Virus record (IMG/VR): IMGVR_UViG_3300024324_000009
Span: 107,041-171,040 of that record
Length of the DNA stretch: 64,000 bases
Reading direction: 5' to 3' (one strand)
DNA from: a virus
Each line of letters starts with the position of its first letter. Within the stretch, counting starts at the first letter, position 1. The notes under the pieces were generated by a model, which was not told the origin of the DNA, made no database searches, and saw only the letters and a program-made list of their open reading frames with translations. The position numbers and the translations under genes are program-made. Of the stretch, positions 1-16,836 are shown piece by piece.

Positions 1-623
1 GCACATTCATAAGTTCTTAGCATTTTCCATCCGTTGAGTTCACACTTTAAGAAAAAATCCCAATCAGTGTATGAACCTGTTAAGGTAGGATATTCTATAT
101 CAAAACCTCCACAAGACATATAATTCAACCTACTCATATATATGGGATAGGTAGAGCCTGTGTCTTCAATCAGGTCTTTCCTTTGGGACTTTTCAAACTT
201 CCAAAAACCTTCTAGGTCAAATTTTGCTGGGTCTTTACCACAGTCCTTAATAATAAACTGACTAAACATACTGTTGTAAGGTTCAATCTGGTTAGGTGCT
301 ATGACTGAATTTGTGACATCTAGCTTTCCCAAAATAGTGTCCCATTCCTTGGGGAAAACATTGTCATCATTTGTAATAAGCACACGCTTATTTTTAGCTA
401 AAGACACTCCAAGGTTTTGTGCTCTGGTCATTCCAACATTGTTAGGTAGGACGACAGGGTGTATTTGGCTGTAGTATTTACTGAGAACATCTGTATTGAC
501 CTCAAGGGTTCCATCAACAACAACTAATATCTCGTTGAGTTTTTCCTGTCCTTCAATAACAGACCGTAAACATAAGTCTAATGCTTGAGGAGTCTTAAAT
601 GTTGGTATAATTACACTAATCAT
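1..623 (-). CDS. Glycosyltransferase family 2 (runs off window start)
   Basis: Manual translation from the ATG at 623: MISVIIPTFKTPQALDLCLRSV...EILVVVDG...NVGMTRAQNLG...LITNDDNVF. These are GT-A motifs. Not in the ORF track because it is truncated. Confidence 0.9.
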   Translation of the reverse strand, partial: MISVIIPTFKTPQALDLCLRSVIEGQEKLNEILVVVDGTLEVNTDVLSKYYSQIHPVVLPNNVGMTRAQNLGVSLAKNKRVLITNDDNVFPKEWDTILGKLDVTNSVIAPNQIEPYNSMFSQFIIKDCGKDPAKFDLEGFWKFEKSQRKDLIEDTGSTYPIYMSRLNYMSCGGFDIEYPTLTGSYTDWDFFLKCELNGWKMLRTYEC

Positions 624-954
624 ATTGTCTGTAGTATTCTCCTGTGTCAATAGTTTTCTTAGAGACACTAAACTTCATTGACATACTGTCTGTGAAAGGT
701 ACGCAAAAAACAGATTCATTTTTAGTGTACCAGCCATATTCGCATTCTGTAGGCTCCCCTATTATAAATACAGGCTTAGAGTCTACCACTATTGCACCCA
801 GATATAAAGGCCTAACACAAACCTGTACAAAGTTGTCAAATAGTTCTATAAAATCTTCTGTGTCTGCCCAGTTGTTCAGAGATTCCTCCGACTTATATTC
901 TGAGGATTCTTTACAAAAGGGGAACATATGTATTATGTAGCGTAACTTATCCAT
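616..954 (-). CDS. Hypothetical protein
   Basis: Overlaps both neighbouring genes, as expected in an operon. Confidence 0.6.
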   Translation of the reverse strand: MDKLRYIIHMFPFCKESSEYKSEESLNNWADTEDFIELFDNFVQVCVRPLYLGAIVVDSKPVFIIGEPTECEYGWYTKNESVFCVPFTDSMSMKFSVSKKTIDTGEYYRQYD

Positions 955-2248: not shown

Positions 2249-3919
2249 TTAAGGCTCAGGAAAAGGTGGTAAATCAGGGCTATAATAACCTGAAATTACA
2301 GACCCCGGGTTGCCTTCACCGGGAAGTTCACCGTACCATTCATCTACCTCTATAATACAGTCAGTGACAACGATAGTATCATAAGCATATACCTTGTTGA
2401 TTTTACCGTTTGCTCTTAGAAATGTCCCATCAGCTTTTTCATACAGTGTTCCTATTCGGAAAGCATCCTGATCTCTGATATCACAGTTGCCGATAAAGGT
2501 GCCAAAATTTACCGTATTATTACTGAAAAGTTCACACTTACCACGAAAAGTTCCTATGTTAATACTGGAGAATATAGTATATAATGTGTTATCTAAATAT
2601 AAATTTAAAGAATCAGCCTTAATATTGGAGTACCTAGCGGTAATAGTGCCTCCCACAATAAGATCATTATTAGCGTTTTCTACATTTAAAGTTGAGCTCA
2701 CTAAGTTACATCCATTATAAATCAGGCCTCCTAGGCCTCCTACAGTAATTGTACTGTCGTGACATTCTATGTTTTGACAAACAAGTTCACCACAAGACAA
2801 TGCTGATATTTCGTTCATAACGATGTCATCATCCACATAAATAGTTTGAGGTGCGGAGACTTTGGTATCATACAATTCAAGACTTGGGAAAACTAGATAT
2901 CCTGCACCTCCTGCTGGTAGATCATAAGCCTTTATGTTGCTGTGGCTATACACGCAGTTTGTACTCATGCTGTCGTAATCAAACACTGGCTCCTGTAGAT
3001 CAGGCCTTTTTACGGGTGGTGCAGACAACTTGGGCCGGTCCTGAGTACCGACCTTGTCATAGGAAACTAAATCCATTTTATAAACTTCAAGGTCTTGAAA
3101 TGTAAGCCTGTACGCTAGCGGTTGTACAAAGTATGCGTGATACCATTGTTCTTCAGCAGTCAAGGTGTTATTAATAAATCTAATTTTTTGGTTCATTACT
3201 GTTTGCTCTACAGGAATACCATCTTCTCTATTTGGTATTTTACTTCTGTCTTGACCATCAATTATTAAATAGCATCCATAGTTTCGTGATTCCATAGGGT
3301 TTTCAAAGCTAGCAAAAAAAGCGGCATCCTCTTCTTCTACTGGAGGTGGAGAATCCAAGTTGATTGCAAAAAAGTTCATATTATTACAAAGTATAGTCCC
3401 TCCATTCACCCAAGAACATATATATGCTTCTCCTTTAGGTAGACCATAAAAACTTATTTCGCATTCATCTAGGATGTTAGTGTAAGATATGTTGTTATTT
3501 ATGGCGTTCACAGCGTCCCAATATTCATAAGACTTGCTGTCTTCATAGTCTGATGCAGGTTCCCACTCACTACTTGTCTGTACTTCTCCTAAAGTCTCTG
3601 GGTCTGAAATACCAAACAACGTACTTGCTTGTGCCTCTGTTCTTAATTCTTTAGGAGTGTCTGATTCTTCTCCGTTTTCATCTTCTTCATAAACACATGA
3701 TGGTACTGGAAACAACTTTTCCATAAAAGTTACACATGCTTGACTATTAGAAAGCCTATATTTGTCTGTAAACGTAACAGACCCTCCTTGTATAAAACAC
3801 CTATTTAAGTCTACAAGATCAAACTCTGATTTTACAGGAAGTGAGAAAGTGCAGTCCTGATCTACCAAGTCTGTAACTGTGGTAAAATTTTCTACTTCAA
3901 ATCTATCCATTAAAAACAC
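2249..3919 (-). CDS. Hypothetical acidic protein with possible beta-helical C-terminus (virion-associated?)
   Basis: 556 aa with short alternating hydrophobic beta repeats in the C-terminal third. Confidence 0.5.
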   Translation of the reverse strand: MFLMDRFEVENFTTVTDLVDQDCTFSLPVKSEFDLVDLNRCFIQGGSVTFTDKYRLSNSQACVTFMEKLFPVPSCVYEEDENGEESDTPKELRTEAQASTLFGISDPETLGEVQTSSEWEPASDYEDSKSYEYWDAVNAINNNISYTNILDECEISFYGLPKGEAYICSWVNGGTILCNNMNFFAINLDSPPPVEEEDAAFFASFENPMESRNYGCYLIIDGQDRSKIPNREDGIPVEQTVMNQKIRFINNTLTAEEQWYHAYFVQPLAYRLTFQDLEVYKMDLVSYDKVGTQDRPKLSAPPVKRPDLQEPVFDYDSMSTNCVYSHSNIKAYDLPAGGAGYLVFPSLELYDTKVSAPQTIYVDDDIVMNEISALSCGELVCQNIECHDSTITVGGLGGLIYNGCNLVSSTLNVENANNDLIVGGTITARYSNIKADSLNLYLDNTLYTIFSSINIGTFRGKCELFSNNTVNFGTFIGNCDIRDQDAFRIGTLYEKADGTFLRANGKINKVYAYDTIVVTDCIIEVDEWYGELPGEGNPGSVISGYYSPDLPPFPEP

Positions 3920-6009
3920 CCTTTTCCTTCTAAGTGAATTATGTGATATCCCGGTGGTTTTGCCACATTAACTTTAAGATAACCTAGATATGGTTCCCAT
4001 TGTATATTTATGGTCGCGTTGTTCTCCGAGTCCAGACAGTTTATTGGTATGGCAGATGTCTCTATGTCTTGATGTGCCGTTGCATGTTTATGTGCTCTTT
4101 TCTTAAATGCTCTGTCCTTGTACATATTACCTTCAAGACGATCTAGTTCTCCTTCATTATTAAAGGCTTTACCCCAACCCCATATAAATTCTAAATCTAA
4201 AGGTAGATAGCAGTCTCCTTCAAAGTCCTCGGCCTCACATTCATCGTCTCGTTCATGAGAAGGTATTTTGCAATAAGCCTTACTCTCTGAAAGCAAATCT
4301 GCTGTAACATGAGTAGGGATATTTTGAGAATAGTGCAACAAATCATCTCCCTTGTTACTTTGGGTGAAACGAGGATTAAGAGAGAGAGCAAATAACATAC
4401 CGAAAGCACTTTGTCTTTCAGCACAAAAGTAAGGTAGACAGTTGGGATAAATAGGAACTCCTTGACATCCCTCATACTCTAGTATAACAAAAGGATCAGT
4501 ACAGTCTATTCCTTCGTTGGCTGGGCAAACAGTTTGCCTACAGGCATAATAGTCGCTACCATTCATGTATCTAATCATGTCTTTCAAAACGGTTTCGGTA
4601 ACTAAAAACGAACCGTCTGGTAATGGCCCCCAGTTTGGTTCACCTCCAGTAATCCAATTTCCTAATGGACATTGTAGAACATACACACATTCGTCAAACT
4701 CTAGTCTTCTATCGTCATAGCCTATAATGCTATACATGGTATACCATATTCTATCTGGATATGCTAAACCTTGACTATCTCTTCTATTGGGAAAACCTAC
4801 GTTAGTAAACAAAGCTACGCCTTCTCCGTTCCAGAGTAGTTGCTTTATTGTTCTAAGATATGCTTCGTAGTCACTGGATGAACTTGGCATTCCTGCTTTG
4901 CCGTTTACGCTTACATCTAGCATAAGAGGTACTGTAGCCCTTATTCTTTCTATCTTTTCTTCTTGTTTTAAGTTGGGACTATCAGGATCAGTAGTCTTTG
5001 GCTTCATTGTTTGATAGTTCCAGCCGTTGCGTTCCTGTAGCCATTCAAAGAATAGGCCTTTATCAATAGTGTTTAATCTATCTGCTTGATTGTTTCTGAG
5101 GTTGCATATACCTGAATATTCTCTTCTTTCTAAAACTCCTATGTGATACATTTTTTCATCTTGTCTACCTGATAATAAGTCTCCTCTCTGCGAACCGTCT
5201 TGAGAAGGAACCCAGTATGCGAACTGTATATATCTACCCTCAAATGTAGCAGTTCTATCAAACCCACAACACTCACTATAGTATTCTGGAGTTCCGGGTT
5301 TACAGCAAGGGTCATTTTCAGGAGGTGGGTCTATTGGTGGGCAGCAGCCACACGATCTACACTTTGGCTGGTCTTCACCAGCACATGTTACGCATGAATG
5401 TGCGGCTCCCGGCACACCTTGGGCTCCGGGCCAACAACTCATTACTCCTACTGTAGGAGACCTTACTTCAAGTACGTCTTGTGGTTCTAGAGTTTGTCCT
5501 ACTTCTTCTGCTGATATTAAATCTGGCCCCATCATCAACATATTGTCTGGTATGCTGTTCCATCCCCAGTATGTCATGTATTCAGTAGCCATTCTGTGAA
5601 AACTTTTTGAGAAATTGTTATCTCCTACATAGTGACAAGCCCTCATAGTGTCCGCAGAGTTCCTGAAAGCATGTGCTACTGCGGCTTGTGGGATTGAGCA
5701 ACATTCTTTATAAGCCCCGCCATCTAATTGTTCTAAAAATTTAAATGGCAATACTAATTGGTATTCATGGTCATTATTAGTTGCACTGTATAGTGTAGAA
5801 TCTGCTGCGGCACTAAAGCAAGGATATTTTAAAATAGATACTGCATCAACAATTCTAGCTAGCCAGTAAGCAGCAGAAACTCCCTGTGGATAAGTACCGA
5901 ATACTTCAGAGTTGCTGTTGTCTGCAAAGTAATCAATTTTTCTAGGCGATGTTGGGCTAGGATCACAAGGGTTTCTTGTAAGTGCCTCATATAGTTCATC
6001 TGGAGTCAT
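3910..6009 (-). CDS. Cys-rich inactive papain-like (C1) protease homolog
   Basis: Colinear similarity to 8847..9773 (TPDELY, AHAFRN, MATE, GFPNRRDSQG, GGEPNWGPLPDGSFL) with the catalytic residues substituted. Confidence 0.8.
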   Translation of the reverse strand: MTPDELYEALTRNPCDPSPTSPRKIDYFADNSNSEVFGTYPQGVSAAYWLARIVDAVSILKYPCFSAAADSTLYSATNNDHEYQLVLPFKFLEQLDGGAYKECCSIPQAAVAHAFRNSADTMRACHYVGDNNFSKSFHRMATEYMTYWGWNSIPDNMLMMGPDLISAEEVGQTLEPQDVLEVRSPTVGVMSCWPGAQGVPGAAHSCVTCAGEDQPKCRSCGCCPPIDPPPENDPCCKPGTPEYYSECCGFDRTATFEGRYIQFAYWVPSQDGSQRGDLLSGRQDEKMYHIGVLERREYSGICNLRNNQADRLNTIDKGLFFEWLQERNGWNYQTMKPKTTDPDSPNLKQEEKIERIRATVPLMLDVSVNGKAGMPSSSSDYEAYLRTIKQLLWNGEGVALFTNVGFPNRRDSQGLAYPDRIWYTMYSIIGYDDRRLEFDECVYVLQCPLGNWITGGEPNWGPLPDGSFLVTETVLKDMIRYMNGSDYYACRQTVCPANEGIDCTDPFVILEYEGCQGVPIYPNCLPYFCAERQSAFGMLFALSLNPRFTQSNKGDDLLHYSQNIPTHVTADLLSESKAYCKIPSHERDDECEAEDFEGDCYLPLDLEFIWGWGKAFNNEGELDRLEGNMYKDRAFKKRAHKHATAHQDIETSAIPINCLDSENNATINIQWEPYLGYLKVNVAKPPGYHIIHLEGKGCF

Positions 6010-6922
6010 TCGTAACCTTTGTTATTGTGTTCTCAGAAGTCTTTTTGTATATCTCTTTTTTTCTAGGTCTTTTATGTTTCCATATGATAGCCAACTGATC
6101 CAAATTTTCTTCTACTATATTGCCACAGATTGAACTGTCGCTATGACAATAAACTTCATTATTTTTAGTAACCACTATTTGTTTAGGAGAATTAATTCCG
6201 TTCACGGTAATAGTAGACATAGTTATAGGATATAGGTTTCCTAAATAGCCAAAAATTCTTTCTAAAGCATGAATATAAGTTGCTACACAAAGACCATGAA
6301 CATCCTGATCTTTGACTGTTCGACCAAGCTCTTTATTATCTATCATAAGCCCTTCTATATAATCTACAACCTCTTTATTAAAATATTTTAAATATGTTTC
6401 AGAACAGCCTGCAAACATAGTGCCTCCAACAAAATGACTATAATTATCGAAAGGTATGCCTAGTTCATCCATGAGGAAGTGTATATAGGGTTTGTGGCAT
6501 CTATCGTGGTTCATCAGCATGGAAAGAGGGCCTATACTATCTATAAAAGGATTATCCAACAATAGACAGTTTTGTCTTAGTATTTTTGGACTACCTAATA
6601 GTTCATATACTAATATTTCTTTCCAGTGGCAGAATCTATGGAGTAGGCTTTTTTTACTATGTATTTTAAAGAAATACTTATAATGCGATGCATATTTTAC
6701 TAGACTTCTTAGAAAGGGCAATATGTCTCCACCGACATTATCTACGTAATCAATCTGAGGATTCAAGTCACTTAACATGGTTACTGTAACATCACAGTCT
6801 ACTGAATCAGGCAGTGTGATATATATATCTACCATGTCTTTAATAGGGAAGAGGTAGTCGTAAAAATATTTTGCTTGATCTTGATGATACAGATGTAAAA
6901 ATACTGCTGTTTTATTTCTCAT
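5996..6922 (-). CDS. Rhamnan synthesis protein F (RgpF)-like glycosyltransferase
   Basis: VFLHLYH, NVGGDILPFL, KIHSKKS, FVGGTMF, HALERIFG. Confidence 0.85.
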   Translation of the reverse strand: MRNKTAVFLHLYHQDQAKYFYDYLFPIKDMVDIYITLPDSVDCDVTVTMLSDLNPQIDYVDNVGGDILPFLRSLVKYASHYKYFFKIHSKKSLLHRFCHWKEILVYELLGSPKILRQNCLLLDNPFIDSIGPLSMLMNHDRCHKPYIHFLMDELGIPFDNYSHFVGGTMFAGCSETYLKYFNKEVVDYIEGLMIDNKELGRTVKDQDVHGLCVATYIHALERIFGYLGNLYPITMSTITVNGINSPKQIVVTKNNEVYCHSDSSICGNIVEENLDQLAIIWKHKRPRKKEIYKKTSENTITKVTNDSR

Positions 6923-7181
6923 TTAATTTATTATACAGTACTAACGCTAGTACACTACCTGCTACACCAGCAAAAATACCTGCTGGTTCTATGACAGAAT
7001 ATGATCCTAGCATATATAATCCTGCTCCTCCCATATATGATCCTATGACTCCTAAAGCTACAGTTTTAATAAATCCAAAGTTTTCTTCGCCGGGAACTAT
7101 AGTTTTAGCTATTGATCCTACAAAAATACCGTATACCGCCCATATAAATAAACTAAACATTTGAGGCCTCCAGTAAAGCAA
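6912..7181 (-). CDS. GlsB/YeaQ/YmgE (transglycosylase-associated) membrane protein
   Basis: G.FVG.IAK.IVPG, T.ALGVIGS.MGG, GVAGSVLAL; three TM helices. Confidence 0.85.
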   Translation of the reverse strand: MLYWRPQMFSLFIWAVYGIFVGSIAKTIVPGEENFGFIKTVALGVIGSYMGGAGLYMLGSYSVIEPAGIFAGVAGSVLALVLYNKLNEK

Positions 7182-7626
7182 TAAGGTCTTCCTCTTTCAT
7201 AGTTGCTGCTTCATCCAATATAGCATTAACTAGAGAAGCTGAATTTTTTTTATAATCTTCAGGCTTGAGTTCTCTCCTTAGTACTCGTTTAATTTTCATC
7301 TTTGTAAACCAGCCTCGTCTCACACTAAAGTTTCTGACACGATTGGCATAAAACATTTTATCTTTATCTTTATTGCACTCTTGTATAATTCTAATAAGAG
7401 TAAGCATCACGCTAATAACCATGATTACAGCTATTACGCTACCATGTTCATCAGACTCTACATTATCATCGGATTGATAGTTCGCCTTTTCTAAAACACG
7501 GGCAGCGATTTCTTTAAGTTTTTCTTGATTTTCCATTATGTTCTCTATACTGGGTTTAAGGTTCACAATACTGACAGTTAATTTTTGCAATTCCATCACC
7601 GCTCCAGTACCAGCCTTTGCCCTCAC
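7153..7626 (-). CDS. Hypothetical single-TM protein (likely start MENQEK)
   Basis: ORF with a hydrophobic segment. Confidence 0.55.
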   Translation of the reverse strand: MRAKAGTGAVMELQKLTVSIVNLKPSIENIMENQEKLKEIAARVLEKANYQSDDNVESDEHGSVIAVIMVISVMLTLIRIIQECNKDKDKMFYANRVRNFSVRRGWFTKMKIKRVLRRELKPEDYKKNSASLVNAILDEAATMKEEDLIALLEASNV

Positions 7627-7789
7627 AAACGGGACAATCTTTTCTTTTGTATTTTTCAGCTATCTCTATTGATTGAGAAGCCTTTATAACGGCACCTACT
7701 AATGTAGTAACCGCAGTTGTGCTGTATTTGGGTAGTGTAGATACTGCAACCATAGAAGCAAGTACACCGCATAAAATAACTCTACTCAT
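7556..7789 (-). CDS. Small protein with DnaJ-type Zn finger
   Basis: Hydrophobic N-terminus, CPVCEGKG...CQYC. Confidence 0.6.
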   Translation of the reverse strand: MSRVILCGVLASMVAVSTLPKYSTTAVTTLVGAVIKASQSIEIAEKYKRKDCPVCEGKGWYWSGDGIAKINCQYCEP

Positions 7790-7924
7790 TTGTTCATCCT
7801 ATCTTTCTTGTTAAATAAAATAACGCCACTCCCTGAACTTTGTATCAGTTTTGATAATGTCGGGAGGTATGATCCACCTTAATATAAGGACAAAATTATT
7901 TGTGAACCAGACTGTTTAGTGACG

Positions 7925-8086
7925 TTATTCTTTCTTAAAAATATTTTTTAGTTTGTCTATAATTGGTCTTTTTTTCTCAGGTTTTGTTATGTCGTCATTA
8001 GGCTGAAACATTTTTAGCAAAGCCAATATAAAGTCGCCAATAATTTTAATTAATCTATTCATAGCAATTTTATCTATGATACTCAT
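7925..8086 (-). CDS. Small hypothetical protein (53 aa, not in track)
   Basis: MSIIDKIAMNRLIKIIGDFILALLKMFQP...; its ATG overlaps the upstream stop (TAATG). Confidence 0.55.
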   Translation of the reverse strand: MSIIDKIAMNRLIKIIGDFILALLKMFQPNDDITKPEKKRPIIDKLKNIFKKE

Positions 8087-8835
8087 TAGGTCACCTTTGT
8101 ATAAGTTACGGAACTTCCTGTTAAAAGAGCAATGCTGTCATTTCCAACAAAATTATGATTTGTAACTATCTCTAGTTGTAGAGTTAAGTCTCCACCAGAA
8201 TCATTCTTTACATAGAACTGTTGTTGTGAAGTGACTGTGCATGGTACATTAAATATAGAAGACGGATTATTTCCAAAACTAACCCAAGTACCAGTATTTG
8301 CAATTTGCTGAGTAGCGTCCTGATGGAGTTCTAGGTGCTCTTTTGATATTGCTTCATAATGCACCCAGTTTCCTCTTGTAATAAATTGGTCACTATCAAG
8401 TCCTCCACTTATAGCAGATTGTTGAGTACTAGTCAAACCGTTTCCTATATTAAAAACAAAATGAGTGCTTACCATATACTGAGTACCATCAGCAATGGTT
8501 TGTGCTAATTCTAGTGGCGTAATAATGGTATTCTGTGCAAGAGAGTAGTTTTGTGTGGCTACCTTGATAGGAAATATGTCTTGACCAATGGTGTCCGTAG
8601 CAGCAGATATAGTTACTGTCTCAGGACTGTCTGCATCTGGTGCAGCATTTGTTGTCAAAGTTACACCGTCTCCTTGTACCAGTAAGTCACTTGGTTTGAC
8701 TGACTGTGCAACAAAACGATTGACATCAACCTTCATAGTTTCTGGTACATCACTAACTCCTGTTACTACACAGAGCAAGTCATCTGTAGCTATAGTAGGT
8801 GCTTCAGGCAATTCTGTAATCTTAGCGTCTGCCAT
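8086..8835 (-). CDS. Putative virion/tail appendage protein
   Basis: N-terminal MADAKITELPEA...DDLL.VV motif typical of phage fibre proteins. Confidence 0.6.
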   Translation of the reverse strand: MADAKITELPEAPTIATDDLLCVVTGVSDVPETMKVDVNRFVAQSVKPSDLLVQGDGVTLTTNAAPDADSPETVTISAATDTIGQDIFPIKVATQNYSLAQNTIITPLELAQTIADGTQYMVSTHFVFNIGNGLTSTQQSAISGGLDSDQFITRGNWVHYEAISKEHLELHQDATQQIANTGTWVSFGNNPSSIFNVPCTVTSQQQFYVKNDSGGDLTLQLEIVTNHNFVGNDSIALLTGSSVTYTKVT

Positions 8836-8846
8836 AATTTATCCCT

Positions 8847-9773
8847 TTATAGATATGTGTCAAAACCGTAATCTGGTAATTCTTGTGGTGGAAAGCCGTT
8901 AAAGGAACTGAAAGCATAAGCACCATTACCTCTAAGCATTCCTGCTGCAATGTCAGCATGTATCAGGAATGAACCGTCTGGTATCGGACCCCATTCAGGA
9001 TGACCTCCGCTGTTAAATTTCCCCCAACTATTTTGTACAAGAAATGCTGGCTCGTTACCTGTGTCGTCACAAGCCGTCCATGCCATTGCGTGATTCCAGC
9101 CTCCACTTTTTCGGGCGAACCCCTTGCTATCTCTTTTGTTAGAAAATCCATAGCCACTACACACACTTAAACCATACCCATTGGCTAGTGCATCTCTTGC
9201 CTCTTCTACAGTTTTAACAAGTGAGACTGTTTTAATTTTGTGTTTTTCTGCTTCGTCAATTACTTTATCTGGAAGGCCTCTGCTTCCCCATCTTGCTCCC
9301 ATGCTTCCATTGTATTTACTAAAGTCAGCAACACCGGGATAGTTTTTACGAACAAGAACACCACCGCTTTGACTGACAAATGTTGCAGCACGACTACAAC
9401 TCATACCTTGTCCACCATGACCTCTGCATCCATATATTGCTTCCGTCGCTCCTCTAGCAACCCAGCTTTCGGGTTCTCCTTCTACATGCATTTCAACTGC
9501 TCTGGTTACATCAACAGCATTCCTAGTAGAATGTGAGACACAATCTCCAGTGGTTTGCCTTTCGATATAGCAGTTCTTATCAAAACTTAGAGCAGAACGA
9601 AACGGAGTAGATAACTTCCCTTTCCCACTATTCTTAATTTTTTTTGCACCATCTTTAAAATATGCATACTTAGAACTTTCTATGAGTTCTTCAAACACAT
9701 GATTCTCCCAAAGTGTTCCGGGCATACCTTCACGATACAATCTATAAAGATCATCAGGGGTTAACCTTGGCAT
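8847..9773 (-). CDS. Papain-like cysteine peptidase (C1)
   Basis: Q..GDC (catalytic Cys), WNHAM (His), QNSWG (Asn). Confidence 0.85.
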   Translation of the reverse strand: MPRLTPDDLYRLYREGMPGTLWENHVFEELIESSKYAYFKDGAKKIKNSGKGKLSTPFRSALSFDKNCYIERQTTGDCVSHSTRNAVDVTRAVEMHVEGEPESWVARGATEAIYGCRGHGGQGMSCSRAATFVSQSGGVLVRKNYPGVADFSKYNGSMGARWGSRGLPDKVIDEAEKHKIKTVSLVKTVEEARDALANGYGLSVCSGYGFSNKRDSKGFARKSGGWNHAMAWTACDDTGNEPAFLVQNSWGKFNSGGHPEWGPIPDGSFLIHADIAAGMLRGNGAYAFSSFNGFPPQELPDYGFDTYL

Positions 9774-10276
9774 TACTTGCTCCCTTCATAAAAAGCCCAT
9801 GACAATGCATTAAAGGCTTCGACACTTTTGGCTCTGAGGTCATCATCCAGTACTACTTCATCTTTGCCTATGCTTGACGCAACAAGATCACCGGCAGCTT
9901 CTGCAAGACCATCGTACTTGCCTTCAATATCAAGTTTAAGCATTTTGCCTGCAAGGACATTAGCCTCTCTGATACTAGCAGTATCTTTAATGACTCCTTC
10001 TTTACCGTCTAAGCTAATAAGAACTCCCATGTCTTTGTATAAAGAAGAAAGTTTGAGACAGTCTTCTCTTTTACCAGAAGCATTTGACTCACGCAACAAA
10101 TCTACAATAACAGTACCTTTTTCAAGAAGCACTTCATCTTCTGGTGCGTCAACTGTTGGTACAGTAACTACTATATCCGGTCTTCCTATGCTAGGAATTA
10201 GACTACCAAGATCAGGCTGAAAGAGTCCGAACAAAATTAATATGGCTCCTATTGCTAGTGCAACTTTTTCTTTCAT
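9773..10276 (-). CDS. Hypothetical membrane-anchored protein
   Basis: N-terminal TM or signal sequence. Confidence 0.55.
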   Translation of the reverse strand: MKEKVALAIGAILILFGLFQPDLGSLIPSIGRPDIVVTVPTVDAPEDEVLLEKGTVIVDLLRESNASGKREDCLKLSSLYKDMGVLISLDGKEGVIKDTASIREANVLAGKMLKLDIEGKYDGLAEAAGDLVASSIGKDEVVLDDDLRAKSVEAFNALSWAFYEGSK

Positions 10277-10285
10277 TGTATTCTC

Positions 10286-10699
10286 CTAGTGTAATGTACT
10301 GACTGAGGCTGTTGTTACTGGCGAAGGGGTTTCTTCGTCACATACTGTTGGGCTTAGGTAAGGAAACATTTGATCTGCAACCTCTACGGCTTTATCGCAA
10401 CCGCTTTGAACTGCAAGGTCTCTTGTTTGTTTCCAAGACACAACTAGATCAAAGAAAATATCTTCGTCATTTCCTGATACTTCTTTGCGACTAGGAACGG
10501 GTCTGACTACTACAGTCTTGTCCCCTACTTTGCCAAGTAGCTGTTTAACCTGATCTACAAATTGTAAAACAAGTTTTTGTACTGGACTAAGTTTGTCTTT
10601 AAATAAAACCCAAAGGACAATACCTATTCCTGCGTATAAAGCCAAGTCTGTTGGCCCTACGCTACTGCTAAACTCATTGAATGTCTGAGTGTAATCCAT
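10286..10699 (-). CDS. Hypothetical membrane protein
   Basis: One TM helix. Confidence 0.55.
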   Translation of the reverse strand: MDYTQTFNEFSSSVGPTDLALYAGIGIVLWVLFKDKLSPVQKLVLQFVDQVKQLLGKVGDKTVVVRPVPSRKEVSGNDEDIFFDLVVSWKQTRDLAVQSGCDKAVEVADQMFPYLSPTVCDEETPSPVTTASVSTLH

Positions 10700-10714
10700 T
10701 TTTGACCGCCTCTC

Positions 10715-11149
10715 TTATTTAACGTATGATACTTCTAGTGTTTCGGGACTGTATGGGTTTGAGTCTACTTTATTTTTTAGGAAGACTCCGATTTCTCTGA
10801 ATGTAGTTACAATGGCATCAATGCCAGCACTGGCAAGACCCATTACAAACTTTTTGACGTAAGAATGAAATAATGGTTCAAACACGTTAGGAATAAAAGG
10901 CAGATCGACAGCCTTGAAAACACTATCATAAAATCCTGATAGTAGATTCATAGCCAGTTCTTTCTTTTCTGTACTAGACAAGTCTGTTCCTATTTTTTCG
11001 ATTAACATTACTAACTCACCGATAACAACCTGCATGACTTTCCATGCTTCTTTAATTGCTAATCTTTTTACTTCTCCGAGGCTTGCGAGTACGTCCTCTT
11101 TTACCTTGTCGAACTCTACGCCTATCTGATCTTTCGTTGCTTCGCTCAT
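10715..11149 (-). CDS. Hypothetical protein
   Basis: ORF within the operon. Confidence 0.55.
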   Translation of the reverse strand: MSEATKDQIGVEFDKVKEDVLASLGEVKRLAIKEAWKVMQVVIGELVMLIEKIGTDLSSTEKKELAMNLLSGFYDSVFKAVDLPFIPNVFEPLFHSYVKKFVMGLASAGIDAIVTTFREIGVFLKNKVDSNPYSPETLEVSYVK

Positions 11150-11438
11150 TGGTATCTTCCTTTATGGGTTGTTGTTCAGGTTCTGGTTCTGGTTCATTCA
11201 ATGGTTCTGGAGGTGTAGGCTCCGCTACAGGCTCAGGTTTTCTAGTCTTTAAATATCTTGATAAAATTCCAAATTGTCCGGCTATAAGTATAATAGATTC
11301 AACTGCGTGGGTGACAACACTGGTTAGTTCGTCTTTCTGATCAATGTCTCCTATAATCCCTGCTAGGAAAAGTCCGCTAAAAATGAAACTGACTAATGTG
11401 AACCAAAATTCACTTGTTTTATATCCGGGTTTTTGCAT
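11052..11438 (-). CDS. Putative holin-like membrane protein
   Basis: KPGYKTSEFW followed by two TM helices and a highly basic C-terminal tail. Confidence 0.5.
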   Translation of the reverse strand: MQKPGYKTSEFWFTLVSFIFSGLFLAGIIGDIDQKDELTSVVTHAVESIILIAGQFGILSRYLKTRKPEPVAEPTPPEPLNEPEPEPEQQPIKEDTNERSNERSDRRRVRQGKRGRTRKPRRSKKISN

Positions 11439-11506: not shown

Positions 11507-12322
11507 TTAGTATGTTTCTAGCCTTTTGTGGTTTGTGGGGCTGGCTACTTGATACAAAGTGCTGTTTTTATTGTACATTACCTGTCTAGCAACACTACTG
11601 TTCCAACTGGTACTGATATCCCAGTTTGTGTCTTTATAAAGTGTTGGTCTCACATTCCATATATATGAAGTCAAAGTTTGAGAACCTGATCCATGATTAG
11701 CATACATTTGAAAAGCAAATCCTCCCCAGTATAAATCATTGTTTTTTACATAATTAGCGTCTGATGCTTTTATCTGATAGCATGTCCAGTAGTTTGTGCT
11801 TTGACTGCTTCCAGCGGTTCCTATAGTAAGACCAAAAACCTTTTGATTGGCTTCTATCCTGTAAGTTCTTCCACTAGCATTTGCATAAAGCAAAATACAC
11901 CTCTGAGGATAAGATGATTTGCTTGCACTGTGAGCACCACTAGAAGAATAATTCCAGCATAAACCATTAACATTAGAAGGCCAACAACCGTCAGACGATG
12001 TACCAGTACTTGTACTACTTAGCATATTAAAACTATATGTGCAAGCAACAATGTATGTACTGCTATATTTTCCTGACCTGCCAGAATACAGCCCATTGCC
12101 TCTGCTGTTGGCGTAAGGATTTCCACTGAAGCCGATATCATCACCTGCTCTACCATCAGTAGTAATGTTATTGCCATTTCTTATGCTGTAACTGGCGTTT
12201 TTAGGAGCACTATGAAGTGTAGTGTCACTGTATGCGATATTATCATGACCTAAGTTAGCCAAATCAGTTGTTTGTGAACTGCCAGCATAGTTAGGTGGGA
12301 TAGTTATTAATTTCTTTGCCAT
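11507..12322 (-). CDS. Putative virion/receptor-binding protein
   Basis: S/G/N/Y-rich, coupled to the tail fibre gene. Confidence 0.5.
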   Translation of the reverse strand: MAKKLITIPPNYAGSSQTTDLANLGHDNIAYSDTTLHSAPKNASYSIRNGNNITTDGRAGDDIGFSGNPYANSRGNGLYSGRSGKYSSTYIVACTYSFNMLSSTSTGTSSDGCWPSNVNGLCWNYSSSGAHSASKSSYPQRCILLYANASGRTYRIEANQKVFGLTIGTAGSSQSTNYWTCYQIKASDANYVKNNDLYWGGFAFQMYANHGSGSQTLTSYIWNVRPTLYKDTNWDISTSWNSSVARQVMYNKNSTLYQVASPTNHKRLETY

Positions 12323-13974
12323 TATGGAACCCAGTATAAGGTGCTGCCACTTTTGTAAAAACTGCCAGAAGTACTACTTGTACTACTTTTAACTACTTGA
12401 TCACCCGGACTGAAACTTGAACCAGCCGATGGAGTTTTCCATGCAGGTGCTCCCGTTGTTCCATTGCTTGTTAAAACTTGTCCAGAGGAGCCGCTCGATC
12501 CACTAATTTGAAGGCGACCCGTCATATTCATTGATACGCTATTCGTAAATTTTGTTGTACTACTAAATGTCTTTTCGCCAGCAACAGTCTCGTCCCCGGT
12601 AAGGCCAACGTAATTAGTTGAGGCATTTGCATTTATAAGAGATATCACAGAAACTTTGGTTTGTATAGATGAACTATCGTCTGTTCTACCTAAGTATTGG
12701 ATAAAACTATTATTGTTTGAACCACCGTTGTAATGATAGTCTTTAAAAATAATCTGATTTTCACCATCCGCAGTCTTACCCCTAAGTATAAATGAGTTAA
12801 AGTTGTTTGAACGCTGGGTACGGTCCACTGTAGTATTAAAATAACCTGCGTCTTTAATATTATATCCACGACAATCTATCTCAGGAATTACATCAACACC
12901 ATTATAATCTGTACCTTGATACAGTTTAAACTGAGAGTTCATCTGAACAACGGTATTACCCCATTTCATCCTAACGCCATTGGAGGTATCATTTGTGCCG
13001 TATGCTAGTGTTCCATTTGCACCGAACTCAGCAGTAATTCTACGATCACCGTTTATAATAATATGATCTTGAAATGTATTCTTTGCAGTAAATGTATTAG
13101 CACTACCCCTTAAAGCACAGAGATCAAACAGTTGATCTACATACGCTATATCTGCTTTATCACTAACGTCTACATCAGGAAAAACAAGACAGTCATATAC
13201 GTCTCCGTCGTCTACTGTACCATTGCTTATAGCACTTTGCATAGTTACATCTAACTTCACCCCACTGGCTAATTGATTGACTGTTTCTATCTGAAATCTG
13301 ACAGAAACATCCTCATCGTTTTCTTCTCTAAAATTAAATGTGTCACCAGAGGCAAGAGAAACAAAGTTGTGTAATAGTCCGTTTTTATCTACAAAACTAA
13401 GAAAGATTTCGTTGATTGTTACAGGGTTGTTTGTAACAGTACCATTAAAACCTACATAACATGCAGAAGGTGCAGGTGCATCACCATATACTTCACTGCC
13501 TTGAGGCGATCTAATAATATATTCAATATCAAAAGTTGATCTAGCCTCTAAGCCTGATACTTTAATATCTAGTATCTCAATGTCTTCTTCAACCTCATCC
13601 ATTCTGTCGTCTAGGTCGGCAATACCTGTCGCATTAGCATCTACACGACCATCTAGAGTAGTAAGGTCTGACTGTAGTGCAAGTCCTGTGGCAGATATTT
13701 CATAGACTCTTTCGCCAGAGAAATAAGTCATCTCTATACCAAAGCCCGGATCGAGAAACTCATCAAGTTTAGCAATTAAAGAATCGTCTGGATAAATAGC
13801 ATTTGCATAGGGTAGTGCGTCCCAAACTAAAGCACCATCGCCTATTTTAAAAGTGTTATAAGTAGTATCTAAACCGAGTTCACCGGAATACAAAACGGGA
13901 TTCTCTAAAGACCAGTTGGCTTCTGTGTCTCTACGTAGTTGCATTTTATAATATTTTGTTGAGTCGAGGCCCAT
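12322..13974 (-). CDS. Tail fibre protein with Mtd_N (major tropism determinant N-terminal)-like domain
   Basis: QLRRDTEANW..NPVLYSGELG.D....FKIGDG...W..LPY, a coiled coil, GDETVAGEKTF and GQVLTSNG fibre motifs. Confidence 0.8.
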   Translation of the reverse strand: MGLDSTKYYKMQLRRDTEANWSLENPVLYSGELGLDTTYNTFKIGDGALVWDALPYANAIYPDDSLIAKLDEFLDPGFGIEMTYFSGERVYEISATGLALQSDLTTLDGRVDANATGIADLDDRMDEVEEDIEILDIKVSGLEARSTFDIEYIIRSPQGSEVYGDAPAPSACYVGFNGTVTNNPVTINEIFLSFVDKNGLLHNFVSLASGDTFNFREENDEDVSVRFQIETVNQLASGVKLDVTMQSAISNGTVDDGDVYDCLVFPDVDVSDKADIAYVDQLFDLCALRGSANTFTAKNTFQDHIIINGDRRITAEFGANGTLAYGTNDTSNGVRMKWGNTVVQMNSQFKLYQGTDYNGVDVIPEIDCRGYNIKDAGYFNTTVDRTQRSNNFNSFILRGKTADGENQIIFKDYHYNGGSNNNSFIQYLGRTDDSSSIQTKVSVISLINANASTNYVGLTGDETVAGEKTFSSTTKFTNSVSMNMTGRLQISGSSGSSGQVLTSNGTTGAPAWKTPSAGSSFSPGDQVVKSSTSSTSGSFYKSGSTLYWVP

Positions 13975-16152: not shown

Positions 16153-16836
16153 TTATCTCTTTTTTTTAGATTTACTAAGAGCAGATTTTATTGTGTCTAT
16201 GTTAGGAAACTGTCTACTACCAAGTACACCATCTGCGAATCCATAGTCAACACTTTCTTCTGGGTCTAAAATCCAATCGCTCTTGCTATCTAATTGAGAA
16301 ACAATGTGCCTTTTGACCATCATTTTTTTCCATTTTTTTGATTCTGCTAAAGGACTTCCCATACATTTGTCCGTAAATATATTTATCATTTTTTGTGATT
16401 CTCTTTGCGACCAAGCAAATGTAGCTATTGCCGCTTTATGTTCTGCTTCCAAAGCCAAAGAGCCGTAATGTATTAGCATGTTAGCATTAGGCATCATAAC
16501 TCTAAGAGGTGCAGATTGAAATAGTATTCCGCTAGCAGATTCCACTTTAGCATAGGCGAGAATAGCTATTGGTGCTTTACTGTATGTTACTGTATCATAT
16601 ATAGCCATACAGTCTTGCCAATCGCCGCCGGGAATATGCATATGCACTAAAATAGGTTCTAGAGACAAGTGATTAAGATGACGGACATTTTTTTCAAATG
16701 CTATAGCAGACCTGTACTCCACGCCACTTTCTTCATCGTAGTCTGTTGGTGAATGCAAAAATATTTCTCTGTTCTTTATGTCTATACCGTGGTTGTGTAA
16801 AGTGCTTACATCATGGTCGCTATTATTTCCCACCAT
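16153..16836 (-). CDS. clpP: ClpP-like serine protease (S14)
   Basis: REIFL, PGG...AIYDT, VESAS (Ser), MLIH (His), SDWILDPEESVDYGFAD (Asp). Confidence 0.85.
   Translation of the reverse strand: MVGNNSDHDVSTLHNHGIDIKNREIFLHSPTDYDEESGVEYRSAIAFEKNVRHLNHLSLEPILVHMHIPGGDWQDCMAIYDTVTYSKAPIAILAYAKVESASGILFQSAPLRVMMPNANMLIHYGSLALEAEHKAAIATFAWSQRESQKMINIFTDKCMGSPLAESKKWKKMMVKRHIVSQLDSKSDWILDPEESVDYGFADGVLGSRQFPNIDTIKSALSKSKKKR

What the first reader, a model, noticed from the sequence alone, without database searches (positions are those of the whole stretch)
3910..9773. Active papain-like protease and a catalytically dead, Cys-expanded paralog 3 kb apart
Seen: the 699-aa protein is colinear with the 308-aa C1 protease. 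Matching blocks (active/dead) are LTPDDLY/MTPDELY, GDCVSHSTRNAVDVTRA/QAAVAHAFRNSADTMRA, RGATE/RMATE, LANGYG...GFSNKRDSKG/LWNGEG...GFPNRRDSQG, WNHAM/WYTMY, VQNSWG/LQCPLG and GGHPEWGPIPDGSFL/GGEPNWGPLPDGSFL. All three catalytic residues are replaced (C>A, H>T, N>C), and large Cys/Pro-rich insertions are added. Inference: a pseudoprotease exapted as a virion structural protein, substrate binder, inhibitor decoy or regulator of the active enzyme.
Basis: seen in the sequence. Interest (0 to 1): 0.75.

Follow-up and report, generated by a model that had tools for sequence, protein, structure and literature searches.

The report
Active and dead papain-like protease pair
An uncultured 171-kb aquatic phage carries an intact papain-family protease, tied to a membrane anchor in a cassette that may replace the usual cell-wall-cutting enzyme, plus a conserved, cysteine-rich copy that has lost all three catalytic residues and must act by binding, not cutting.

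Summary

The 308-aa protein keeps Q73/C78/H228/N248/W250. In homologs, inteins sit exactly at C78, H228 and N248. The 699-aa protein has A, T and C at the three catalytic positions, and none of the 57 family members aligned keeps all three. It gained two insertions with about 20 conserved cysteines. It arose once, on a long branch. It is under purifying selection (dN/dS 0.18, against 0.017 for the active copy).

- **Context:** the active enzyme is translationally coupled to a signal-anchored 167-aa protein. Other lineages fuse that protein to the peptidase (hhalign E 8.5e-20).
- **Cassette:** the pair lies among conserved small membrane proteins, and 15 peptidoglycan-hydrolase families are absent from the complete genome.
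- **Reading:** an envelope-directed protease, perhaps for lysis, plus a non-catalytic binding or regulatory paralog. This resembles Plasmodium SERA6 and SERA5.

The role of the dead copy is inferred, not shown. First readers of this scan noted the same cassette in other genomes.

The parts
8847..9773 (-). P0002: 308-aa xylellain-type C1A cysteine peptidase, predicted active. Q73 is at 9555-9557, C78 at 9540-9542, H228 at 9090-9092, N248 at 9030-9032 and W250 at 9024-9026.
3910..6009 (-). P0001: 699-aa catalytically dead paralog (pseudoprotease). A109 is at 5683-5685, T424 at 4738-4740 and C447 at 4669-4671. Insertions lie at about residues 150-385 and 481-535, and the C-terminal tail at about 560-699.
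9773..10276 (-). 167-aa partner with an N-terminal signal-anchor helix. Its stop overlaps the P0002 start (TAATG). In other phage lineages it is fused N-terminally to the C1 domain.
   Evidence: TM prediction and positive-inside flank charges. BLASTP E 5e-5 to the fused proteins. hhalign A3 against A4: probability 99.2%, E 8.5e-20. Adjacent to the peptidase wherever the upstream DNA is held.
11052..11438 (-). First gene of the conserved block: two TM helices plus a very basic tail. Orthologs carry a ComEA-like HHH_3 DNA-binding domain in place of that tail.
10715..11149 (-). Conserved 144-aa protein of the block. No family match.
   Evidence: Synteny. No Pfam or PHROGs hit.
10286..10699 (-). 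Conserved 137-aa protein with one N-terminal TM helix.
7153..7626 (-). Conserved single-TM protein of about 130-157 aa. It follows the active peptidase in all lineages. In the subclade with the dead paralog it lies upstream of it.
6912..7181 (-). 89-aa GlsB/YeaQ-type (Transgly_assoc) small membrane protein. In most relatives it lies directly before the dead paralog.
   Evidence: Pfam PF04226: E 1.4e-5 here and 2.1e-7 in L009. Position.
2249..3919 (-). Variable, beta-helix-like protein, 556 aa as listed from a GTG start. It is coupled to the stop of P0001: an ATG three codons in overlaps it as TAATG. Relatives have a protein of 360-1335 aa at this position.
   Evidence: dN/dS 0.80 against L003. 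No Pfam or PHROGs hit.
5996..6922 (-). RgpF-like glycosyltransferase (308 aa).
   Evidence: Pfam PF05045, E 4.4e-13. Synteny counts.

Best explanation
Shown or strongly supported:
- P0002 is an intact short bacterial-type (xylellain-like) C1A cysteine peptidase.
- It is by far the most conserved gene of its neighbourhood.
- It is translationally coupled to a signal-anchored 167-aa protein, and other phage lineages fuse that protein to the peptidase. This ties the enzyme to the cytoplasmic membrane.
- P0001 is a paralog that arose once, in a subclade of roughly 170-230-kb relatives.
- P0001 keeps the whole two-lobed papain fold but has lost the Cys nucleophile, the His and the Asn. In this phage the oxyanion Gln is lost too.
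- P0001 gained two insertions with about 20 conserved cysteines.
- P0001 stays under purifying selection while evolving about ten times faster than the active copy.

Inferred:
- By the positive-inside rule, the anchored domain faces the periplasm.
- The active enzyme attacks protein in the host envelope. Most likely this happens at lysis or egress, because the complete genome has no recognisable muralytic enzyme and the gene sits in a conserved cassette of small membrane proteins.
- The N-terminal ~50 residues may act as a zymogen-like lid.
- The dead copy cannot do papain-type catalysis, so it acts by binding. Most likely it holds the same substrate or partner without cutting it, and so targets, times or restrains the cassette's action. 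Plasmodium offers a parallel: the pseudoprotease SERA5 acts beside the active SERA6 at egress.
For: - **Paralogy:**
- **C1 fold of both proteins:**
- **Catalytic residues mapped and conserved:**
- **Inteins:** Hint plus LAGLIDADG inteins are inserted exactly at TTGD|C78, WNH228|C, VQN248|S and NSWG|S in homologs. This marks these motifs as the most constrained sites.
- **Loss of the triad across the dead family:** nucleophile column S31/A21/C3/G2; His column T31/H13/Q10/N3; Asn column C42/L8/S4/V2/N1. No member has all three.
- **Single origin:** support 100, stem 1.1 substitutions per site.
- **Selection:** dN/dS 0.18 against 0.017.
- **Copy number:** one active plus one dead copy in four complete 192-231-kb genomes. 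Only the active copy is present in four complete 152-180-kb genomes.
- **Co-occurrence:** in 30 of the 34 loci with a dead copy, the active copy lies upstream on the same strand. In the other four the upstream DNA held is short.
- **Fusion with the anchored partner:**. Flank charges are N +2.2 and C 0 in the split partner, and +1.8 and -1.2 in the fused forms, which predicts N-in, C-out.
- **Conserved membrane cassette:**
- **No muralytic enzyme found:** 15 peptidoglycan-hydrolase Pfam families are absent in a six-frame search of the complete genome.
- **SERA5 precedent:** PMC5500368.
Against: - No experiment bears on activity, location or timing.
- P0002 and P0001 have no export signal of their own. 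In this phage they would reach the envelope only through a membrane lesion.
- The 'holin-like' first gene carries a ComEA-type HhH DNA-binding domain in orthologs. That is not a holin feature and weakens the lysis reading.
- C1 enzymes are not known to cut peptidoglycan.
- Absence of 15 families is not absence of every muralytic enzyme.
- Very strong conservation and inteins are unusual for endolysins.
- Nothing links P0001 physically to P0002.
- P0001's fast evolution, and the hypervariable large protein coupled to it, fit a surface or virion role equally well.
- Cysteine counts do not track the predicted compartment among active forms. The cysteines of P0001 therefore cannot be read as disulfides.
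Confidence: 0.5

Rival explanations
1. P0001 is a virion-associated structural or adhesin protein. The dead papain cleft and the Cys-rich, perhaps disulfide-bonded, insertions bind a host-envelope component. It works together with the large variable beta-helix-like protein encoded directly downstream.
For: P0001 is always followed, often with overlapping stop and start, by a 360-1335-aa repeat-rich protein that diverges fast: 25-35% identity between relatives, and dN/dS 0.80 between close ones. Fibre-like genes with an Mtd_N domain are interspersed in the same region. About 20 conserved Cys, including CC doublets, suggest stability outside the cell. P0001 evolves much faster than P0002.
Against: The recognised tail genes, including the tape measure, lie on the other arm of the genome. 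There is no structural-protein family hit. P0001 lies next to membrane proteins of the cassette. No proteomic data are available.
Confidence: 0.25
2. P0002 is a maturation protease for the phage's giant structural proteins (2217, 4824, 3525, 1914 and 3030 aa). P0001 is a non-catalytic assembly chaperone or scaffold that holds the same substrates.
For: P0002 shows extreme conservation and inteins, which are typical of essential replication and morphogenesis genes. The genome encodes several giant virion proteins. A ClpP-like protease lies in the same conserved region.
Against: Other lineages fuse the peptidase behind an N-terminal membrane anchor predicted to place it outside the cytoplasm. The gene is flanked by small membrane proteins, not by head or tail genes.
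Confidence: 0.1
3. P0001 is a decoy that soaks up host or rival inhibitors of C1 peptidases, or another defence factor aimed at P0002. This protects the active enzyme.
For: The cleft-forming blocks are kept while the catalytic residues drift. Evolution is faster, as expected in an arms race. The dead copy occurs only beside an active copy.
Against: No inhibitor is known or was seen. The large conserved Cys-rich insertions are not needed for a decoy.
Confidence: 0.07
4. P0001 is not dead. It uses a non-canonical site, such as Ser-His in some members or a metal centre built from the new cysteines, for a different hydrolytic or redox reaction.
For: Ser is the commonest residue in the nucleophile column (31 of 57). 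One member (P0177) has Ser, His and Asn with an intact NSWG motif, and three have Ser, His and Ser. The family has about 20 conserved Cys.
Against: P0001 itself has Ala, Thr and Cys at these positions and lacks the oxyanion Gln. The three columns vary freely across the family and there is no invariant His. An extra residue is inserted next to the nucleophile position.
Confidence: 0.07

Closest known systems
Xylellain (PDB 3OIS) and other short bacterial C1A peptidases. A survey of the papain family reports that Caudoviricetes acquired these (PMC10380794).
   Different: Sequence identity is only 12-16%. Pfam PF00112 is below threshold. The phage family has its own conserved loops (GFSNKRDSKG and GGHPEWGP-PDGSF), a coupled or fused membrane-anchored partner, inteins, and a dead paralog.
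Plasmodium SERA family: active Cys-type SERA6 and the Ser-type pseudoprotease SERA5 (PMC5500368, PMC4671257, PMC8167364)
   Same: These are clustered papain-like paralogs. One is catalytic and drives exit from the host cell. The other lacks the Cys (Ser in its place), is non-enzymatic, and controls the timing and efficiency of egress. Ser is also the commonest replacement in the P0001 family. SERA5 is among the top Foldseek rows for P0001.
   Different: There is no common descent beyond family C1. SERA5 keeps the His and is secreted and processed by a subtilisin. P0001 also lost the His and the Asn, has no signal peptide, and has large Cys-rich insertions. An egress role for the phage pair is inferred only.
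Papain-fold phage lysins: CHAP, NlpC/P60, Amidase_5, and the C71 pseudomurein endoisopeptidases PeiW and PeiP (PMC10318531)
   Same: They are clan-CA Cys-His enzymes used by viruses to open the host wall. The position of P0002 among small membrane proteins, and the lack of any other lysin, suggest an analogous job.
   Different: Those are small amidases or isopeptidases of other families. P0002 is a full two-lobed C1A protease, a family with no known peptidoglycan activity. CHAP and NlpC/P60 models find nothing in this genome.
SAR (signal-anchor-release) endolysins and multimeric lysins with non-catalytic binding subunits, such as P1 Lyz and PlyC (from my own knowledge)
   Same: Fused homologs carry an N-terminal, Gly/Ala-containing anchor ahead of the enzyme, as SAR endolysins do. 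Pairing a catalytic chain with a non-catalytic binding chain has precedent in PlyC.
   Different: Release from the membrane, and any complex between P0001 and P0002, are untested. Here the anchor is followed by a ~150-aa conserved domain of unknown fold.
Baculovirus V-cath (viral cathepsin, C1A; mentioned in PMC10380794)
   Same: A virus-encoded C1A protease used late in infection to break down host barriers.
   Different: It was acquired from a eukaryotic host, acts on insect tissue, and has no dead paralog or membrane partner.

Membership tests
Peptidase family C1 (papain), subfamily C1A: P0002 | Two-lobed papain fold | tested here: met
Peptidase family C1 (papain), subfamily C1A: P0002 | Catalytic Cys at the helix N-terminus, His and Asn, plus the oxyanion Gln and the Trp of NSWG | tested here: met
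   C78, H228 and W250 are invariant. Q73, N248 and S249 are at least 90% conserved in 74 sequences. They align to Cys25, His159 and Asn175 of caricain.
Peptidase family C1 (papain), subfamily C1A: P0002 | Reaches the curated Pfam PF00112 score | tested here: not met
   14 bits against a cut-off of 20.7, E 0.053. The family profile reaches PDB C1A sequences only at E 1.5e-4. P0002 is therefore a divergent member, not a typical one.
Peptidase family C1 (papain), subfamily C1A: P0002 | Thiol-dependent, E-64-sensitive peptidase activity | not testable with these tools
   Needs expression and assay.
Peptidase family C1: P0001 | Papain fold | tested here: met
Peptidase family C1: P0001 | Catalytic Cys, His and Asn | tested here: not met
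   P0001 has A109, T424 and C447. None of 57 homologs has all three.
Pseudoenzyme (pseudoprotease) | Homolog of an enzyme that lacks essential catalytic residues yet is maintained by selection | tested here: met
   dN/dS 0.18 and 0.17 against two orthologs. 50 invariant columns in 57 sequences. Intact ORFs in three of four complete genomes, with one TAA inside the match in the fourth.
Pseudoenzyme (pseudoprotease) | Demonstrated lack of catalytic activity | not testable with these tools
   Needs an assay. Coordinates for a search for an alternative site were not available.
Phage holin-endolysin lysis cassette | Small membrane protein of holin type next to the lytic enzyme | tested here: inconclusive
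   The first gene has two TM helices and a basic tail, but orthologs carry a ComEA-like HHH_3 domain. No holin family hit.
Phage holin-endolysin lysis cassette | The enzyme degrades the host wall | not testable with these tools
   No assay. C1A enzymes are not known muralytic enzymes.
Phage holin-endolysin lysis cassette | No other lysin in the genome (supporting, not defining) | tested here: met
   The six-frame search of the 171-kb record found no match (E up to 0.1) for 15 families: PF00959, PF01510, PF01464, PF01520, PF01551, PF13539, PF00877, PF05257, PF01183, PF05838, PF02557, PF13702, PF18013, PF08291 and PF00182. Other families were not tested.
Inteins (in homologs of P0002) | Hint splicing domain, with or without a homing endonuclease, inserted in frame before a Cys, Ser or Thr, with continuous extein flanks | tested here: met
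   Pfam Intein_splicing, Hom_end_hint and LAGLIDADG_3. The junctions start with C or S and mostly end in HN, followed by C or S.

The most novel reading that the evidence does not exclude
A large clade of uncultured 150-235-kb aquatic phages has replaced the muralytic endolysin with a membrane-tethered C1A cysteine protease cassette that opens a protein-rich host envelope. One subclade added a dead, Cys-rich paralog that binds the same target and sets the timing or site of rupture. That would be a phage counterpart of the SERA6/SERA5 egress pair.
Probability: 0.2. Interest if true: 0.85.

Novelty: new variant of a known kind. Interest (0 to 1): 0.62.

Why it matters
Papain-family pseudoproteases are known in eukaryotes, and xylellain-type C1A genes have been listed in phages. 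In the papers I searched I found no description of any of the following:
- a phage pair of one active and one dead copy;
- a membrane-anchored partner that is fused to the enzyme in other lineages;
- a cassette that may stand in for an endolysin.

If the envelope or lysis reading holds, it would add a protease-based route of phage exit or entry, with a built-in non-catalytic modulator. It would also bear on how phages deal with hosts that have protein-rich envelopes; earlier notes suggest planctomycetes as the host. The family is very common in metagenomes (about 2000 clusters at 90% identity). It is also a hotspot for inteins, which sit at all three catalytic residues. That makes it a useful natural system for intein biology and a clean evolutionary marker of the active site.

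Tried and rejected
- **Cultured-phage relatives:** megablast of 3000-11000 and tblastn of P0002 against 50,697 GenBank phage records found nothing.
- **Family libraries:** PHROGs gave nothing for P0001, P0002 or the membrane proteins. Pfam gave nothing for P0001.
- **PDB by sequence:** a search with P0002 alone gave only chance hits. The partner's profile (A3) hit nothing in PDB.
- **Insertions as degenerate inteins:** rejected. They are not at the intein sites and have no Hint match.
- **P0001 as a decaying pseudogene:** rejected.
- **P0002 as the major capsid protein** (308 aa, highly conserved, downstream of a ClpP-like gene): rejected by the papain fold.
- **Cysteine number as a marker of compartment:** anchor-fused, predicted periplasmic active forms have no more Cys than free forms (median 3.5 against 7). 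This gives no support for reading P0001's cysteines as disulfides.
- **Atlas feature search on the insertion:** sub-threshold calpain rows only.
- **Contexts of fused forms:** the contigs were too short to help.
- **Cellular genomes:** only two MAG contigs, probably phage DNA.
- **Promoter and terminator scans:** counts are at shuffle level, and GGTGTA gives 33 matches against 25.8 expected.
- **Attachment point of the dead clade:** unresolved within the active family because of the long stem.
Full report
**Setting.** The window is the last 64 kb of a 171,040-bp IMG/VR phage record that CheckV rates complete. Nearly all genes in the window lie on the minus strand. The recognised tail genes and several giant proteins lie on the plus-strand arm at 0.2-74 kb. 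Earlier notes of this scan call it a probable planctomycete phage. I saw planctomycete-type genes (PSCyt, DUF1501, DUF1559) in the window but did not test the host.

**Observation.** P0002 is the 308-aa ORF at 8847-9773(-). P0001 is the 699-aa ORF at 3910-6009(-).
- BLASTP gives E 9e-16 for the C-terminal block and 0.002 for the N-terminal block.
- Profiles built from 74 and 57 homologs align colinearly over 273 columns: hhalign probability 99.9%, E 1.7e-34.
- The stated replacements are exact: C78 to A109, H228 to T424, N248 to C447, and also Q73 to C104.
- A different 308-aa ORF inside the span (5996-6922) is an RgpF-like glycosyltransferase and is unrelated.

**The active copy.** Pfam scores Peptidase_C1 below threshold, so I tested the fold.
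- AlphaFold2 with the family alignment gives pLDDT 95.2.
- All Foldseek matches listed are C1A peptidases.
- The family profile reaches caricain at E 1.5e-4. It aligns GDC, H and NSWG to Cys25, His159 and Asn175.
- C78, H228 and W250 are invariant, and Q73, N248 and S249 are nearly so.
- Proenzymes align from model residue 5 and mature enzymes from about residue 50. The N-terminal ~50 residues may therefore act like the end of a propeptide. This is an inference.

The family is large.
- It has 1987 clusters at 90% identity, and the best 120 are 74-100% identical to P0002, nearly all of 304-308 aa.
- It has 1418 representatives at 50% identity.
- It is almost absent from cellular genomes: only two MAG contigs, probably phage DNA.
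- The Atlas names its clusters 'Peptidase C1A ...', mostly Uroviricota.
- A survey of the papain family already reports xylellain-type C1A genes in Caudoviricetes (PMC10380794).

**Inteins mark the active site.** Many representatives are 440-1200 aa long and match in two or three pieces.
- They carry Hint and LAGLIDADG domains.
- The junctions fall at TTGD|C78, WNH228|C, VQN248|S and NSWG|S.
- Inteins thus sit at each of the three catalytic residues. Inteins home into the most constrained motifs of essential genes, so this is independent evolutionary support that these residues are the functional centre.

**The dead copy.** AlphaFold2 gives pLDDT 76.7.
- There are insertions at about 150-385 and 481-535. 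A poorly predicted tail follows from about residue 560.
- Across 57 homologs the three catalytic columns drift. The nucleophile column is S31/A21/C3/G2 with one extra residue beside it. The His column is T31/H13/Q10/N3. The Asn column is C42/L8/S4/V2/N1.
- Neighbouring residues (Y423, Y426, R116, N117, G450) are invariant. No member keeps Cys, His and Asn together.
- One member (P0177) has Ser, His and Asn with an intact NSWG motif. It looks like an intermediate form.
- The family has about 20 cysteines conserved in at least 88% of members, several as CC doublets. In the active family only C78 is conserved.
- In a tree of 157 sequences the dead family is one side of a branch (support 100) on a stem of 1.1 substitutions per site. 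Its point of attachment is unresolved.
- dN/dS against two orthologs is 0.18 and 0.17, against 0.017 and 0.064 for P0002. The gene is therefore functional but about ten times less constrained.
- Four complete genomes of 192-231 kb each have exactly one dead and one active copy. Four complete genomes of 152-180 kb have only the active one.
- In 30 of the 34 loci with a dead copy the active copy lies upstream on the same strand. In the other four the upstream DNA held is short.

**Context.** One block is conserved in over 70 related loci:
1. a protein with two TM helices (11052-11438);
2. a 144-aa protein;
3. a protein with an N-terminal TM helix;
4. a 167-aa signal-anchored protein (9773-10276), whose stop overlaps the peptidase start as TAATG;
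5. P0002;
6. a variable stretch;
7. a single-TM protein (7153-7626);
8. a GlsB/YeaQ-type small membrane protein (6912-7181).

In the subclade, the dead copy follows. After it comes a large repeat-rich protein that diverges fast. Here it is 556 aa, with dN/dS 0.80 against the closest relative.

**A gene fusion links the peptidase to the membrane.** In other lineages the C1 domain, with intact catalytic motifs, lies in one protein behind an N-terminal TM helix and a ~150-aa domain.
- That domain is homologous to the 167-aa neighbour: BLASTP E 5e-5; hhalign probability 99.2%, E 8.5e-20.
- Flank charges predict N-in, C-out. That places the domain, and the fused peptidase, outside the cytoplasm.

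**No recognisable wall hydrolase.** Six-frame searches of the whole genome with 15 peptidoglycan-hydrolase Pfam families found no match.

**Interpretation.** The active enzyme is tied to the membrane and probably acts on the envelope.
- I rate lysis or egress as the leading reading at about 45%. Two points speak against it. Orthologs of the first gene carry a ComEA-like HhH DNA-binding domain, which is not holin-like. C1 enzymes are also not known to cut peptidoglycan.
- Entry, or processing of giant virion proteins, remain alternatives.
- The dead copy cannot use the papain mechanism. It keeps the cleft-forming blocks and the family-specific loops. I therefore read it as a binding protein.
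- My preferred reading is a non-catalytic targeting or timing partner of the same process. The parallel is Plasmodium, where the Ser-type pseudoprotease SERA5 controls the kinetics of an egress that depends on a cysteine protease (PMC5500368).
- A virion or adhesin role together with the coupled hypervariable protein is a serious rival.

**Relation to earlier notes.** First readers of this scan noted the same endolysin-free cassette around a papain-like protease in this genome and in at least five others. Those notes gave me the lead to examine the membrane neighbours. They are not independent evidence.

**Verdict.** The specific role is unresolved. I class it as a new variant of a known kind, papain-family pseudoenzymes, in an unusual and possibly important phage setting.

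Noticed in passing
Homologs of window 8847-9773 (proteins P0183-P0332): Inteins with LAGLIDADG endonucleases are inserted at four or more points, exactly at the catalytic Cys78, His228 and Asn248 and after NSWG. Some proteins carry two or three inteins (up to 1207 aa).
   Followed up: yes
window 11052-11438 (-), and orthologs such as L070:7614-8090 and L076:7751-8233: The first gene of the conserved block has two TM helices. Orthologs end in a ComEA-like HHH_3 DNA-binding domain. This phage has a Pro/Glu linker and an Arg/Lys-rich tail instead. It therefore looks like a membrane-anchored nucleic-acid binder rather than a plain holin.
   Followed up: partly
window 2249-3919 (-), and the ORFs after the dead paralog in L009, L013, L015, L022, L025 and others: A very divergent family of large (360-1335 aa) proteins rich in N-x-S/G-x-N beta-helix-like repeats always follows the dead paralog. 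dN/dS is 0.80 between this phage and its closest relative. No Pfam or PHROGs match.
   Followed up: partly
whole genome G000 (171,040 bp): None of 15 common peptidoglycan-hydrolase Pfam families was found in six frames. This holds even inside the giant tail proteins, where an entry lysin would be expected.
   Followed up: partly
window 12322-13974 (-) and 8086-8835 (-): Variable fibre-like genes are inserted at different points of the otherwise conserved block and are present in only a few relatives. One has an Mtd_N domain. The other has a similar 'ITELPEA..DDLL' N-terminus.
   Followed up: no
window 16153-16836 (-): A ClpP-family protease lies about 6 kb upstream. Three conserved unknown genes follow it, and it is conserved in synteny with the peptidase block. 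It is not next to any portal or capsid gene that I could recognise.
   Followed up: no
window 3-668, 954-1586, 1583-2185 and 5996-6922 (-): Glycosyltransferase genes (two GT2, a GT2-related paralog and an RgpF-like one) flank the dead paralog. In relatives a dCMP deaminase lies between the large variable protein and the GT2 genes.
   Followed up: no
protein P0177 (527 aa, on a 203,925-bp contig): This member of the dead family has Ser, His and Asn at the three catalytic positions and an intact NSWG motif. It is a possible intermediate, or a serine-type variant that might still be active.
   Followed up: partly
L085 (SAR202 MAG contig, 152,655 bp) and L084 (alphaproteobacterial MAG contig, 2.6 kb): These are the only 'cellular' records with the peptidase. 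They look like phage contigs binned into MAGs, so they should not be used to infer the host.
   Followed up: no
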